Shown: positions 7,141 to 11,910 of the stretch, piece by piece
Layout of the letters: every line of letters begins with the position of its first letter
Position numbering within the stretch: the first letter of the stretch is position 1
Assembly (NCBI RefSeq): GCF_009914755.1
Contig: NC_060940.1
Direction: 5' to 3' (one strand)
Length of the DNA stretch: 64,000 bases
Origin: the human T2T-CHM13v2.0 reference genome, Homo sapiens
Notes under the pieces: generated by a model
The model's input: only the letters and a program-made list of their open reading frames with translations
What the model was told of the DNA's origin: nothing
The model's database searches: none
Made by a program: the position numbers and the translations under genes

Positions 7141-8100
7141 TGCAGGGGTGGGTTGCCCCTCCACACCTGTGGGTGTTTCTCGTAAGGTGGGATGAGAGAT
7201 TTGGAAAAGAAAAAGACACAGAGACAAAGTATAGAGAAAGAAATAAGGGGACCCGGGGAACCAGCGTTCAGCATATGGAGGATCCCGCCAGCCTCTGAGT
7301 TCCCTTAGTATTTATTGATCATTCGTGGGTGTTTCTCGAAGAGGGGGATGTGTCAGGGTCACAAGACAATTGTGGGGAGAGGGTCAGCAGACAAACACGT
7401 GAACAAAGGTCTTTGCATCATAGACAATGTAAAGGATTAAGTGCTGTGCTTTTAGATGTGCATACACATAAACATCTCAATGCTTTACAAAGCAGTATTG
7501 CTGCCCGCAGGTCCCACCTCCAGCCCTAAGGCGGCTTTTCCCTATCTCAGTCGATGGAGCATACAATCGGGTTTTATACTGAGACATTCCATTGCCCAGG
7601 GACGGGCAGGAGACAGATGCCTTCCTCTTGTCTCAACTGCAAGAGGCATTCCTTCCTCTTTTACTAATCCTCCTCAGCACAGACCCTTTACGGGTGTCGG
7701 GCTGGGGGATGGTCAGGTCTTTCCCTTCCCACGAGGCCATATTTCAGACTATCACATGGGGAGAAACCTTGGACAATACCTGGCTTTCCTAGGCAGAGGT
7801 CCCTGCGGCCTTCCGCAGTTTTTGTGTCCCTGGGTACTTGAGATTAGGGAGTGGTGATGACTCTTAAGGAGCATGCTGCCTTCAAGCATCTGTTTAACAA
7901 AGCACGTCTTGCACCGCCCTTAATCCATTTAACTCTGAGTTGACACAGCACATGTTTCAGAGAGCACTGGGTTGGGGGTAAGGTCACAGAATCTCAAGGC
8001 AGAAGAATTTTTCTTAGTACATAACAAAATGGAGTCTCCTATGTCTACTTCTTTCTACACAGACACAGTGACAATCTGATCTCTCTTGCTTTTCCCCACA
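7141..8100 (-). mobile_element. HERV-K(HML-2) 3' LTR (LTR5_Hs-type), complete U3-R-U5, 960 bp
   Basis: minus strand begins TGTGGGGAAAAGCAAGAGAG and ends CCCCTGCA; PPT AGAAAAGGGGGAAA at 8101-8114; TATAAAA at 7572-7578; AATAAA at 7311-7316. Confidence 0.97.
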
Positions 8101-9862
8101 TTTCCCCCTTTTCTTTTCCACAAAACCGCCATCGTTGTCATGGCCCGTTCTCGATGGTCGCTGTCTCTTCAGAGCTGTTGGGTACACCTGCAGACTAACA
8201 ACAGACAAAACAGGCACACAAGGATTAATATGAGATTTATAATCGTAGTACTTCCGATGGTCTTAACCCAAGTGACAGGGTTAAGATTTGCGAGGCCATC
8301 AGCAACTCCTGCAATTGCCTCAGTGCCTGGCACCAAATTTAAATGGGCTTTTGATGCTTCGAAAATTTGTTCTTTTAATTTGGAAATGTCTAAAGTGAGA
8401 TTATCTTCTCTTCCTTGTAGATGGCGTCTAACCATGTCCCAGTGATGCTCAGACTCATTATAAATTTGGGGTGTAATACAAAAATCTGACGTATTCCAGT
8501 CACACTGTAACTGGAAACGATGTTCTAAGCTCATGAGTCTGTCTCCCATCCAAATGACAGTTTGTCTAAGATCATTAATTTGATTTGCCAATTTTTGATC
8601 AATACTAGATTGTGAATTCCACAATCTTGTAGAATTTTTTTGCCAATCATTAACAAAGTTTACTGACTGAACAGAAGAGTGCAATGCAACTCCTGCTACA
8701 GCAGCCGTAGCTGTGACTGCAATTAATCCCATAATCACTGCAATTAAAGTAAAAATGAATCTTTTGGATCTATTTAAAACACCTTTTAATACTTCAGTCA
8801 AAATATGGACGGATGGCAAGGCCTCCCACGGTCGGTCCATGGACACAGGGATCCACACGCCCTCTCTTGCTCTCACCAGCAGAATACGGTGTTGCCAATT
8901 AAAAGTTGAATCAATGCAAGTAAACAATCTACAATTTTCACAGGTTATAGTCTGGGAGTATGGTTTAATAACTATATTTCCTACAACTAGCATATAAGGG
9001 GGCTTTACGCAACTTTGTAAAGGAACCGTTAGACTGGAATTTAGGTCGATAGTATAAAATGGCTTACGATCTCTTGTTTCTAAAGTTTGATTTCCAGACC
9101 AAATTCTAATGTGGTGTGAGGCCACAGTAAGCCTCCATAATTCTGGATGTTCAGGACCAGAAACAGGACTTATTATTTTTGGTCTTGGGGTAGAGATTCC
9201 TTTTTCTCCCCATTCCCAAGGGTAGAAAGACTGCAATTTTTTATGCTTATGTTTGTCTAAACTTTCTGTTAAGTCGCTATCAACAGCTGGACTCACTTGT
9301 GCACTTGGACATGACTGAGTTTGTCCTGAGCAATTGTGGTAGAATTGACCTCGAGGTGCCCAATCTATAATAGTTCCGAATTTATTGTTTTGTAATATCA
9401 CCGCACTATTGGCCACACATTCTTCCCAAACTAAAACTTCTGTATTTTTTGATTCTTTGGGAATTTCCTTGGGGCAAGGTTTCCCTTTAGGTCTAAATTT
9501 TAATGATCTTTGATAAGAAAAGTCTTGTAAATAATTTACCCGTGGCCTGAGTGACATCCCGCTTACCATGTGATAAGTGAATCTACTGATGGGACTGACA
9601 GTAGGTACTTCTACCAACCAATTTTGGACTGCAGGCATTAAACATCCTGGTGCTCTCACTAGGCAAATAGGAGGATAACAATACCCAATGGAAATATTTA
9701 TCATCATCCCTTCTTCCTCAGGTTTGGCAGGGCAGCGATCATCTGTGGGGCCAGGTACCCATACGCTATCATTAACATATACTTCTATAGGATTATCCAT
9801 CCATGTGACTGGTGTTACCATCTCCGTGGAGGCCCTTTTCTTTGCATCTCTGATGGGTTCAT
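8014..9862 (-). CDS. np9: Spliced HERV-K Np9, 74 aa (exons 9862-9819 and 8194-8014)
   Basis: joined translation [76 protein letters not shown] donor at 9818-9817, AG acceptor at 8196-8195; 44+181=225 nt in frame. Expression not shown. Confidence 0.85.
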
Positions 9863-9875
9863 TGTAGAACTTCAA
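8169..9875 (-). CDS. env: HERV-K(HML-2) type 1 env ORF: no signal peptide, SU+TM open, cytoplasmic tail truncated
   Basis: first ATG at 9821 gives 550 aa ([13 protein letters not shown]...); furin site RSKR, fusion peptide [57 protein letters not shown]; type-1 junction AAAAGGGCCTCCACGGAGATGGTAAC; premature TGA at 8169-8171. Confidence 0.92.
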
Positions 9876-10897
9876 ATGTCTAGTGGGTATTTGGCATGTT
9901 TTTGCAGTGGCTGGTACCGGTTGTTCCTTTCCATGTTTAGTGCTTGCTTCAGGAGCTCTTTTAGGGCATGCCTGGTGGTGACAAAATCTCTCAGCATTTG
10001 CTTTTCTGTAAAGGATTTTATTTCTCCTTCACTTATGAAGCTTAGTTTGGCTGGATATGAAATTCTGGGTTGAAAATTCTTTTCTTTAAGAATGTTGAAT
10101 ATTGGCCCCAACTCTCTTCTGGCTTGTAGAGTTTCTGCCGAGAGATCAGCTGTTAGTCTGATGTGCTTCCCTTTGTGGGTAACCCGACCTTTATCTCTGG
10201 CTGCCCTTAACATTTTTTCCTTCATTTCAACTTTGGTGAATGTGACAATTATGTGTCTTGGAGTTGCTCTTCTCGAGGAGTATCTTTGTGGCGTTCTCTG
10301 TATTTCCTGAATCTGAATGTTGGCCTGCCTTGCTAGATTGGGGAAGTTCTCCTGGATAATATCGTGCAGAGTGTTTTCCAACTTGGTTCCATTCTCCCCG
10401 TCACTTTCAGGTACACCAATCAGATGTAGATTTGGTCTTTTCACATACTCCCATATTTCTTGGAGGCTTTGTTCATTTCTTTTTATTCTTTTTTCTTTAA
10501 ACTTCTCTTCTCACTTCATTTCACTCCTTTGATCTTCCATCACTGATACCCTTTCTTCCAGTTGATCAAATTGGCTACTGAGGCTTGTGCATTCGTCACA
10601 CAGTTCTCATGCCATGGTTTTCAGCTCCATCGGGTCCTTTAAGGACTTCTCTGCATTGATTATTCTAGTTAGCCATTCGTCTAATTTTTTTCAAAGTTTT
10701 TAACTTCTTTGCCATGGGTTTGAACTTCCTCCTTTAGCTTGGAGTAGTTTGATCATCTGAAGCCTTCTTCTCTCAACTCGTCAAAGTCATTCTCCATCCA
10801 GCTTTGTTCCATTGCTAGTGAGGAGCTGCATTCCTTTGGAGGAGGAGAGGCACTCTGATTTTTAGTTTCCCGTTTTTCTGCTCTGTTTTTTCCCCAT
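9872..10897 (-). pseudogene. Disrupted L1 ORF1p with chimeric C-terminus (..KHAK-YPLDI*)
   Basis: ATG at 10897; 2-bp deletion gives TAA at codon 12; second in-frame TGA at 10511-10513; C-terminal 190 codons open. Confidence 0.88.
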
Positions 10898-11910
10898 CTT
10901 TGTGGTTTTATCTACCTTTGGTCTTTGATGATGATGACGTACTGATGGGTTTTTGGTGTGGATGTCCTTTCTGTTTGTTAGTTTTCCTTCTAACAGTCAT
11001 GACCCTCAGCTGCAGGTCTGTTGGAGTTTGCCGGAGGTCCACTCCAGACCCTGTTTGCCTGGGTATCAGCAGTGGAGGCTGCAGAACAGCAGATATTGGT
11101 AAACAGCAAATGTTGCTGCCTGATTTTTCCTCTGGAAGTTTTGTCTCGGAGGAGTACCTGGCCATGTGAGGTGTCAGTCTGCCCCTACTGGGAGGTTCCT
11201 CCCAGTTAGGCTACTCGGGGGTCAAGGACCCACTTGAGGAGGCAGTCTGTCCATTCTCAGATCTCCAGCTGCATGCTGGAGAACCACTACTCTCTTCAAA
11301 GCTCTCAGACAGGGACATTTAAGTCTGCAGAGGTTTCTGCTGCCTTTTGTTTGGCTATGCCCTGCCCCAGACGTGGAGTCTACAGAGGCAGGCAGGCCTC
11401 CTTGAGCTGTGGTTGGCTCCACCCAGTTCGAGCTTCTGAGCCACTTTGTTTACCTACTCAAGCCTCGGCAATGGCAGGCGCCCCTCCCCCAGCCTCGTTG
11501 CTGCCTTGCAGTTTGGTCTCAGACTGCTGTGCTAGCAATGAATGAGGCTCCGTGGGCGTAGGACCCTCCAAGCCATGCACGGGATATAATCTCCTGGTGT
11601 GCCATTTGCTAAGACCATTGGAAAAGTGCAGTATTAGGGTGGGAGTGACCCAATTTTCCAGGTGCCGTCTGTCACCCCTTTCTTTGACTAGGAAAGGGAA
11701 TTCCCTGACCCCCTGTGCTTCCCAGGTGAGGCGATGCCTTGCCCTGCTTCGGCTCTCACTCAGTGTGCTGCAGCCCCTGTCCGACATTCTCCAGTGAGAT
11801 GAACCCAGTACCTCAGTTGGAAATGCAGAAATCCCCAGTCTTCTGCATCACTTACGCTGGCAGCTGTAGACTGGAGCTGTTCCTATTCAGCCATCTTGGC
11901 TCCTCCCCCC
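9889..11910 (-). mobile_element. L1PA (about PA3-PA5) 5'UTR + ORF1, truncated at the last codons of ORF1
   Basis: 5' end GGGGGGAGGAGCCAAGATGGCTGAATAGGAACAGC; ORF1 RRM/CTD translation KRPNLHLIGVPE...[12 protein letters not shown]; no ORF2 follows. Confidence 0.95.
11471..11790 (+). pseudogene. L1 antisense ORF0, interrupted
   Basis: MAGAPPPASLLPCSLVSDCCASNE* (TGA at 11543-11545) continuing as GSVGVGPSKP...IRVGVTQFSRC. Confidence 0.8.

What the first reader, a model, noticed from the sequence alone, without database searches (positions are those of the whole stretch)
7141..11910. L1 promoter/ORF1 fused to HERV-K env-np9-LTR: a chimeric transcription unit
Seen: on the minus strand a full L1PA 5'UTR and ORF1 run to ...AAACATGCCAAAT and switch, with a 2-nt AT microhomology (9890-9889), into HML-2 ATACCCACTAGACATTTGAAG. 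The join is in the last codons of ORF1 and about 11 nt upstream of the env splice-acceptor AG. The new ORF1 stop (9874-9872) lies 10 nt before the np9 ATG (9862) and about 50 nt before the env-frame ATG (9821), so viral ORFs sit where L1 ORF2 would be. The 3' LTR supplies a polyA signal. Established: the L1 5'UTR is an internal Pol II promoter. Inference: a provirus with no 5' LTR could still be transcribed under L1 control (hypomethylated germline, embryo, tumour), and LTR-primed HML-2 assays would miss it. CpG decay in the 5'UTR may have weakened the promoter.
Basis: partly seen in the sequence, partly recalled or inferred. Interest (0 to 1): 0.82.

Follow-up and report, generated by a model that had tools for sequence, protein, structure and literature searches.

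The report
Truncated HERV-K provirus joined to L1
A catalogued, human-specific HERV-K fragment (env plus one LTR) lies directly behind the promoter end of an older L1 element, so the L1 may drive its RNA, but that is unproven and little protein is likely.

Summary
The sequence observation holds. On the minus strand an L1 5'UTR (11910-10898) and ORF1 frame run into HML-2 sequence at 9890/9889, with a 2-nt AT overlap. The join occurs once in this assembly.

- ORF1 carries 7 internal stops.
- The L1 is an old L1PA3/4-grade copy, CpG-poor, and holds the 129-bp ZNF93-site segment (PMC5860796).
- The env frame lacks its N-terminal ~111 and C-terminal 38 residues.
- The np9-type 74-aa ORF is open.

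The locus is already in print as HML-2 "16p11.2" (PMC3228705) and "HERV-K130". HERV-K130 is described as a human-specific "non-classical insertion" with a target-site deletion (PMC3625200). A chr10 paralogue shows that about 5.9 kb of host DNA is missing, and the rest of the L1 is gone too.

The locus has no 5' LTR yet was among the ten most expressed HML-2 loci in breast-cancer lines (PMC6102855). So some other promoter acts. The L1 5'UTR is a fair candidate (~0.3). An old LTR 110 bp further upstream, read-through and antisense RNA are rivals. I had no RNA data to test any of them. Modest interest.

The parts
12022..12571 (-). Old LTR-type repeat of about 550 bp (starts TG, ends CA) in the same orientation as the L1. 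It is a rival upstream promoter. Its AATAAA is lost through a 4-nt gap.
   Evidence: the 39 largest matches to other copies are 85-87% identical (5,246 first-look candidates); alignment with 3 copies, and 3 of 3 keep AATAAA where this copy has a gap. It is also present on the chr10 paralogue. No tool gave a family name.
11911..11920 (-). Ten nt of unclear origin between the last base that aligns to chr10 (11921) and the L1 start.
   Evidence: It may be diverged target site or filler. An L1 target-site duplication cannot be checked because the L1 3' end is gone.
10898..11910 (-). L1 5'UTR, 1,013 nt, complete at its 5' end. It has 17 CpG (observed/expected 0.24).
   Evidence: The script counts were made from 11913, which adds 3 flank nt but no CpG or ATG.
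11026..11150 (-). Segment of about 125 nt that is absent from younger L1 copies with a 910-nt 5'UTR. It corresponds to the 129-bp ZNF93-site segment of L1PA3/L1PA4.
   Evidence: 5 of 6 copies with a 374-aa open ORF1 frame lack query 764-888, and 6 of 6 same-type copies have it; 5'UTR lengths. PMC5860796 passages.
11810..11811 (-). GT of the L1 5'UTR splice donor / RUNX3 core (equivalent of G98U99). It is kept.
   Evidence: alignment. PMC5860796 passages on G98U99.
9872..10897 (-). L1 ORF1 frame of 342 codons with 7 internal stops. The last 6 codons and the stop are read from HML-2 sequence.
   Evidence: Pfam Transposase_22 and Tnp_22_dsRBD on the open C-terminal 117 aa; all 149 other L1 matches cover only residues 1 to 112-114 of the 117.
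9889..9890 (-). The join: an AT shared by the L1 and HML-2 (2-nt microhomology), with no filler.
8101..9889 (-). HML-2 internal part (end of pol, then env), type 1, with the 292-bp deletion site near 9811.
   Evidence: 19 other copies are contiguous over the site, and 20 matches are partial, splitting at query 75-80. One chr6 copy holds 292 extra bp there; 97.0-98.5% identity to 6 copies over 1,800 nt (1,722 nt for the type-2 copy).
9819..9862 (-). First coding piece of an np9-type ORF (14 codons plus 2 nt), followed by GT at 9818-9817.
   Evidence: That this GT is the type-1 donor is recalled. PMC9631305 describes a type-I-specific donor only in general terms.
8014..8194 (-). Second coding piece of the np9-type ORF (1 nt plus 59 codons plus stop) after an AG at 8196-8195. 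The whole ORF is 74 aa and open.
   Evidence: The two pieces were translated separately.
8169..9821 (-). Env-frame ORF of 550 aa. It has no N-terminal signal region and lacks the last 38 residues.
   Evidence: Pfam HERV-K_env_2 at 1.2e-118 and GP41 at 8.9e-21; 2 of 6 copies read 38 aa further, and the type-2 copy has a 699-aa env.
7141..8100 (-). HML-2 3' LTR of 960 nt, complete to its terminal CA, with AATAAA at 7316-7311.
7030..7140 (-). 3' part of an Alu with its A-run. This is the host target of the LTR end. The Alu is whole on the chr10 paralogue.

Best explanation
This is a rearrangement scar at a known locus, not an evolved unit.

An L1 of L1PA3/4 grade was already present in this chr16 copy of a chr10-derived duplicated segment. 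A type-1 HML-2 provirus later joined, by its intact 3' LTR end, into an Alu about 6 kb downstream of that L1. Three stretches are now missing. They are the last 5 nt of ORF1 with the rest of the L1 (about 4.1 kb), about 5.9 kb of host DNA, and the 5' LTR-gag-pro-pol of the provirus (about 6.4 kb). The two ends were sealed by end joining at a shared AT.

The loss may have come after a normal integration or during an aberrant one-ended integration. That is open.

One side effect follows. The nearest same-strand promoters upstream of env/np9 are now the L1 5'UTR and, 110 bp further up, an old LTR. The HML-2 LTR supplies the poly(A) signal. RNA from the env part is documented. I take the L1 5'UTR as the most likely single start site, but only at about 0.3.

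Protein output is probably small. The np9-type 74-aa ORF is open. The env frame has no signal region and no tail. An unspliced L1-started RNA would have a 2,048-nt leader with 36 AUGs.

Shown here: the anatomy, the join, the missing DNA and the state of the ORFs. Inferred: the order of events, the promoter and the splicing.
For: Anatomy and join
-.

Single copy
- Only 1 of 40 scored matches spans the join.
- Only 1 of 43 matches spans the LTR/Alu border at full identity.

Older L1
- 34 other copies are 89-93% identical over nearly all of the 2,023 nt.
- The ~125-nt segment is present here but absent in 5 of 6 copies with open ORF1 and a 910-nt 5'UTR. PMC5860796 assigns this segment to L1PA3/L1PA4.

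Younger provirus
- It is 97.0-98.5% identical to 6 other copies.
- PMC3625200 Table 3 lists it among the human-specific insertions.

Missing host DNA
- The window is collinear with chr10 at 84-89% on both sides.
- Homology stops at 11921 and resumes at 7140.
- chr10 holds 5,892 bp in between.
- 0 of 1,424 hits from the 40-kb chr10 stretch touch 7141-11910.
- About 4.1 kb of L1 plus 5.9 kb of host DNA is close to the upper figure of 10,207 bp in PMC3625200 for target-site deletions. Linking that figure to this locus is my inference, because Table S3 could not be opened.

Integrase-type 3' end
- The LTR runs to its terminal CA.

Transcription without a 5' LTR
- PMC6102855 passages. The published primers map to 9025-8058.
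Against: - No RNA, CAGE or chromatin data could be consulted, so no promoter is shown.
- RefSeq annotates no gene over 7141-11910 (hub table). That is weak evidence against strong expression in normal tissues.
- The published RT-PCR used oligo-dT and was not strand-specific. The RNA it detected could be antisense, or part of a long read-through transcript.
- PMC3625200 calls its four non-classical elements '5' and 3' truncated' and reports no microhomology for this locus. I find a complete 3' LTR end and a 2-nt overlap at the 5' join.
- No ape sequence was available, so the pre-insertion state is inferred from a paralogue and not from an orthologue.
Confidence: 0.78

Rival explanations
1. The L1 5'UTR is the working promoter of a chimeric L1-ORF1/env/np9 RNA that ends at the LTR poly(A) site. 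The RNA may be spliced from the L1 donor (G98U99 equivalent) into HML-2 acceptors, which would give an np9 mRNA with a short leader.
For: - The 5'UTR is complete, with the YY1-box region and the donor/RUNX3 GT kept.
- It is the nearest same-strand promoter-type element.
- The locus is expressed although it has no 5' LTR (PMC6102855).
- The np9-type ORF is open.
- G98U99 is a functional donor in L1 RNA (PMC5860796).
Against: - The element is old: 89-93% to other copies, 17 CpG with observed/expected 0.24.
- It carries the ZNF93-site segment (PMC5860796).
- The sequence upstream of the env acceptor is now purine-rich L1 ORF1 sequence. It replaces the CT-rich stretch seen in 6 of 6 HML-2 copies.
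- PMC5860796 reports that most L1 5'UTRs are not spliced.
- No transcript evidence was available.
Confidence: 0.3
2. The L1 promoter is silent. The env RNA comes from the old LTR at 12571-12022, from read-through of a longer upstream transcript, or from antisense transcription. The L1 part is only a passenger.
For: - The old LTR is in the same orientation and only 110 bp upstream. It has lost its own AATAAA, which 3 of 3 other copies keep. RNA starting in or passing through it would therefore run on.
- The published assay is not strand-specific (PMC6102855 methods, section 14).
- From my own knowledge: most RNA signal from old L1 copies is passive read-through.
Against: - The old LTR is itself ancient, 85-87% identical to other copies.
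- No gene model lies upstream on this strand in the hub table.
Confidence: 0.45
3. Origin in one step, the published reading. A broken or incomplete HML-2 DNA was captured during repair (a 'non-classical insertion'). One end was joined by integrase and the other by end joining. About 10 kb of target DNA was lost at the same time, and no full provirus ever sat here.
For: - PMC3625200 (passages, Table 3) classes HERV-K130 this way and reports target-site deletions of up to 10,207 bp.
- There is no target-site duplication to be seen, and the 5' join has only 2 nt of overlap.
Against: - The 3' LTR is complete to its terminal CA, as after normal integration.
- Later deletions that remove the 5' part of a provirus are common among the truncated loci listed in PMC3625200 Table 3.
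- The two histories leave the same sequence behind.
Confidence: 0.4
4. L1-mediated chimeric retrocopy. L1 reverse transcriptase copied HML-2 RNA from its poly(A) tail and then switched template to L1 RNA.
For: - The L1 part reaches its very 5' end, as a run-off copy would.
- There is a short overlap at the switch point.
Against: - The HML-2 part does not end at the poly(A) site. It continues about 170 nt past AATAAA (7316) to the canonical LTR end at 7141, with no A-tail, and directly abuts Alu sequence.
- The two ends lie 5.9 kb apart in the ancestral layout.
Confidence: 0.02

Closest known systems
HML-2 provirus '16p11.2' (Subramanian 2011, PMC3228705), also called HERV-K130 (Shin 2013, PMC3625200) and 16p11.2(476)/(427) (PMC12057132)
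   Same: It is the same locus. The size and make-up match: 5' LTR 0, internal 1,788, 3' LTR 958 in hg19, against 1,789 and 960 here. It sits in pericentromeric 16p11.2 and has no 5' LTR.
   Different: - The passages I read do not mention that the 5' neighbour is an L1 5'UTR+ORF1, nor the AT overlap.
- hg38 is reported to hold two copies 500 kb apart (PMC12057132). This assembly holds one.
Type-1 HML-2 proviruses that express np9 from their own 5' LTR (general scheme in PMC9631305)
   Same: The 292-bp deletion, an np9-type 74-aa ORF in two coding pieces, and a 3' LTR with a poly(A) signal.
   Different: The 5' LTR, the leader and its first splice donor are all absent. The sequence upstream of the env acceptor is replaced by L1 ORF1 sequence.
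L1-initiated chimeric transcripts, and L1 sense read-through into 3' flanks (known kinds; recalled, except for the LCT13 example named in PMC9631305)
   Same: An L1 5'UTR with Pol II promoter potential lies upstream of non-L1 sequence and a foreign poly(A) signal.
   Different: Most described chimeric transcripts use the L1 antisense promoter. Here the sense promoter would be used, the L1 has lost ORF2 and its 3' end, and no transcript has been shown.
SVA composite retroelements (recalled)
   Same: A composite element whose 3' module derives from the HML-2 env end and LTR.
   Different: SVA is a mobile family that ends at a poly(A) tail. This is a single fixed rearrangement with a complete LTR.

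Membership tests
HERV-K(HML-2) type 1 provirus | Env protein domains of HERV-K | tested here: met
   Pfam HERV-K_env_2 at 1.2e-118 (model 1-169 of 169) and GP41 at 8.9e-21.
HERV-K(HML-2) type 1 provirus | 292-bp deletion at the pol-env border | tested here: met
   19 other copies are contiguous over the site. Type-2 copies split at query 78/79. One chr6 copy holds 292 extra bp.
HERV-K(HML-2) type 1 provirus | Two LTRs with gag-pro-pol between them | tested here: not met
   HML-2 sequence starts at 9889/9890, so the 5' LTR, gag, pro and most of pol are absent. It is a fragment of a member.
HERV-K(HML-2) type 1 provirus | 3' LTR complete to its terminal CA and carrying a poly(A) signal | tested here: met
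   35 of 38 LTR matches stop at window 7141-7138. AATAAA at 7316.
L1 (L1PA3/L1PA4 grade) | ORF1 RNA-binding domains | tested here: met
   Tnp_22_dsRBD at 4.7e-42 and Transposase_22 at 1.2e-09 on the open C-terminal 117 aa.
L1 (L1PA3/L1PA4 grade) | 5'UTR holding the 129-bp segment that L1PA2/L1PA1 lost | tested here: met
   about 125 nt are present here and in 6 of 6 same-type copies, and absent in 5 of 6 copies with a 910-nt 5'UTR. The assignment to subfamilies comes from PMC5860796. No RepeatMasker-type classifier was available.
L1 (L1PA3/L1PA4 grade) | Open ORF1 and ORF2, 3'UTR and A-tail | tested here: not met
   7 stops in ORF1; everything 3' of the last 5 nt of ORF1 is absent.
L1-promoter-driven chimeric transcription unit | Transcription start inside the L1 5'UTR and RNA spanning the join | not testable with these tools
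   No RNA-seq, CAGE or EST data were on hand. The only indirect support is that env RNA from the locus is reported (PMC6102855).
L1-promoter-driven chimeric transcription unit | Core promoter motifs kept (YY1-box region, RUNX3/donor core) | tested here: inconclusive
   both regions align with other copies and the donor GT is kept. Each carries a CpG-to-TpG change, and overall CpG observed/expected is 0.24.
Non-classical (repair-mediated) HERV-K insertion, Shin 2013 | No target-site duplication, and loss of target DNA | tested here: met
   5,892 bp of chr10-equivalent DNA and the L1 3' part are missing. No duplication can be seen.
Non-classical (repair-mediated) HERV-K insertion, Shin 2013 | Element truncated at both ends | tested here: not met
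   the 3' LTR end is complete. Only the 5' side is truncated.
L1-mediated chimeric retrocopy | Ends at the RNA poly(A) site with an A-tail | tested here: not met
   U5 is complete and there is no tail.

The most novel reading that the evidence does not exclude
The 5'UTR of an old L1 has become the working promoter of a human-specific HML-2 env/np9 unit. It might even supply the first splice donor that the provirus lost. This would explain why a provirus with no 5' LTR ranks among the most expressed HML-2 loci in breast-cancer lines. It would also place np9-type RNA under L1-type control (DNA methylation, ZNF93/KAP1) and not under LTR5Hs control.
Probability: 0.25. Interest if true: 0.5.

Novelty: new member of a known kind. 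Interest (0 to 1): 0.33.

Why it matters
If the L1 start is real, it gives a concrete reason why this 5'-LTR-less, human-specific HML-2 locus is expressed. It also shows that locus-level HML-2 studies cannot infer regulation from LTR sequence alone. In addition it adds one np9-capable locus whose control differs from the others.

If the L1 start is not real, the locus is an ordinary rearranged repeat in a pericentromeric duplication. It would still serve as a clean example of a deletion joining two retroelements at a 2-nt overlap.

Either way the structure is already catalogued, so the gain is modest.

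Tried and rejected
Searches that gave nothing or could not be run
- Rfam scan of 6500-12500: no match.
I therefore could not see Additional file 1 of PMC6102855 (the expression ranks) or Table S3 of PMC3625200 (deletion size and microhomology per locus). 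Both bear on the claims made here.
- Montesion et al. J Virol 2018 and Jacobs et al. 2014 are not held.

Searches for a printed description of an L1-HML-2 fusion or an L1 promoter at this locus
- Searches found none in the passages I read. Unread full texts and supplements remain open.

Models rejected
- Template-switch retrocopy: the U5 is complete and there is no A-tail.
- Misassembly: the same element is present in hg19.

Checks that gave no answer
- A paralogous L1 on chr10 was looked for and not found.
- An L1 target-site duplication could not be assessed.
- The old LTR could not be named. My recollection wavers between two families, so I give no name.
- PMC4379556 lists the locus, but the passages I read say nothing about its expression in Tera-1.

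Full report
**1. What is in the sequence**

All features are on the minus strand.

- An L1 begins at 11910. My first scripts used 11913, which adds three flank bases; the counts are unaffected.
- The 5'UTR runs to 10898 and is 1,013 nt long.
- The ORF1 ATG is at 10897. The frame is kept for 342 codons to TGA 9874-9872.
- ORF1 contains 7 in-frame stops within the first 129 codons. Only the C-terminal 212 codons are open.
- The 117-aa ATG-ORF in that open part carries the Pfam L1 ORF1 domains.

The switch to HML-2 is at 9890/9889.

- A 201-nt query across the join gave 40 scored matches out of 246 candidates in this assembly.
- 25 of the 40 are L1 copies ending at window 9890-9888.
- 14 of the 40 are HML-2 copies beginning at 9890/9889.
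- Only 1 of the 40, the window itself, spans the join.
- 6 of 6 L1 copies continue for 5 nt to their own ORF1 stop.
- 4 of 6 HML-2 copies have AT before the shared sequence, and 2 of 6 have TT.

**2. The HML-2 part**

- It is type 1. In one search, 19 other copies are contiguous across the deletion site near 9811. Twenty further matches are partial and split at query 75-80. One chr6 copy holds exactly 292 more bp.
- The env start codon at 9862 opens a frame that closes after 15 codons.
- A GT follows at 9818-9817. After an AG at 8196-8195 the same reading continues for 59 codons. An np9-type ORF of 74 aa is therefore open (the two pieces were translated separately). The length of Np9 and the identity of that donor are recalled. 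PMC9631305 gives only the general scheme.
- The env-frame ORF from ATG 9821 is 550 aa with the HERV-K env and GP41 domains.
- Compared with six other copies, it stops 38 residues before the end seen in 2 of 6. It also lacks about 111 N-terminal residues of the 699-aa env of the type-2 copy, including the start of the protein. It cannot make a normal envelope glycoprotein.
- The 3' LTR (8100-7141) has AATAAA at 7316. It runs to its terminal CA: 35 of 38 other LTR matches stop at window 7141-7138.
- The LTR end abuts the 3' part of an Alu.

**3. The L1 part**

- 34 other copies cover nearly all of the 2,023-nt query at 89-93% identity. The element is therefore much older than the provirus, which is 97.0-98.5% identical to its relatives.
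- I fetched six L1 copies with an open 374-aa ORF1 frame. Five have a 910-nt 5'UTR and lack about 125 nt that this copy holds at window 11150-11026. Six of six same-type copies hold that segment.
- PMC5860796 (passages) describes a 129-bp segment at this place. It carries the ZNF93 site, is present in L1PA3/L1PA4, and was lost in L1PA2/L1PA1.
- The 5'UTR has 17 CpG (observed/expected 0.24). Six same-type copies have 14-31 CpG, and five younger ones have 28-38.
- The YY1-box region and the donor/RUNX3 core both align with other copies. Each has one CpG-to-TpG change. The donor GT (the G98U99 equivalent) is kept at 11811-11810.

**4. How the join arose**

- The flank beyond the LTR has a paralogue on chr10.
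- I fetched 40 kb of that region. It is collinear with window 18545-1 at 84-89% identity in the unique blocks.
- Homology stops at 11921, ten bases before the L1. It resumes at 7140, the first base after the LTR, inside an Alu that is whole on chr10.
- chr10 holds 5,892 bp between these two points. None of the 1,424 hits of the chr10 stretch touches 7141-11910.
- Both the L1 and the provirus are therefore later arrivals in the chr16 copy. About 5.9 kb of host DNA is missing here. So are the rest of the L1 (about 4.1 kb, from a recalled full length of about 6.15 kb) and about 6.4 kb of provirus (from the type-1 sizes in PMC3625200 Table 3).
- A template-switch retrocopy is excluded, because U5 is complete and there is no A-tail.

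**5. What is in print**

- The element is '16p11.2' in Subramanian 2011 (PMC3228705, table row read). The species distribution is given as 'Unknown' and the first report as 'This Study'.
- Shin 2013 (PMC3625200, Table 3 and passages read) lists it as HERV-K130: human-specific, 'Non-classical insertion', 5' LTR 0, internal 1,788, 3' LTR 958. That paper reports target-site deletions of 6 bp to 10,207 bp among four such loci. It reports no microhomology for this one.
- My sum of about 10 kb fits the upper figure. Assigning that figure to this locus is my inference.
- I differ from that paper on two points. The 3' LTR end is complete, and there is a 2-nt overlap at the 5' join.
- Whether the loss happened during an aberrant integration or after a normal one cannot be told from this sequence.
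- PMC12057132 (passages) reports two copies 500 kb apart in hg38. This assembly has one.

**6. Is it a transcription unit?**

- PMC6102855 (passages and methods section 14 read) found this locus among the ten most expressed HML-2 proviruses in 8 breast-cancer lines. The assay was oligo-dT RT-PCR on env with single-genome sequencing. The authors set the locus aside 'since 16p11.2 has no 5' LTR'.
- Their primers map to window 9025-8058. RNA over env therefore exists and needs a promoter other than an HML-2 LTR.
- The L1 5'UTR is the nearest candidate.
- The rivals are the following:
  - An old LTR of about 550 bp in the same orientation at 12571-12022, which has lost its AATAAA where 3 of 3 other copies keep it.
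  - Read-through from further upstream.
  - Antisense RNA, because the assay was not strand-specific.
- RefSeq has no model here (hub table).
- I found no printed mention of an L1 start or an L1 fusion at this locus (searches; passages only, supplements closed).

**7. Translation**

- An unspliced RNA from 11910 has a 2,048-nt leader with 36 AUGs before the np9/env start.
- ORF1 is closed, so ORF2-style reinitiation does not apply.
- A short leader would need splicing from the L1 donor into an HML-2 acceptor. The stretch just upstream of that acceptor is now L1 ORF1 sequence, not the CT-rich stretch of 6 of 6 HML-2 copies. PMC5860796 also reports that most L1 5'UTRs are not spliced.

**8. Verdict**

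- The structure is a known locus, and its history can now be read in detail.
- The promoter idea is reasonable but untested. I put it at about 0.3.
- Interest is modest.

Noticed in passing
window 1-18545 (minus strand) versus G000:C10:13408661-13436323: At least this part of the window is a collinear copy (84-89% identity in the unique blocks) of a chr10 region. The window therefore lies in an old inter-chromosomal duplication. Several Alus differ between the two copies.
   Followed up: partly
window 12022-12571: An old LTR-type repeat of about 550 bp with thousands of relatives. It has a 4-nt gap that removes its AATAAA. No tool gave a family name.
   Followed up: partly
window 7141-9889 versus the literature: hg38 is reported to hold two copies of this truncated provirus 500 kb apart, and hg19 one (PMC12057132). 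This assembly holds one copy of both junctions. The cause may be a copy-number polymorphism or an assembly duplication in hg38.
   Followed up: no
G000:C17:31644873-31645145 and G000:C21:16049160-16049359: These two loci match across the LTR-end/Alu border of the query at 76% and 83%, over 235 and 205 nt. I did not examine them.
   Followed up: no
window 11911-11930: The L1 5' flank reads TT/AAAAAA followed by 10 nt that do not align to chr10. This looks like an L1 endonuclease site, but the matching 3' duplication is lost.
   Followed up: partly
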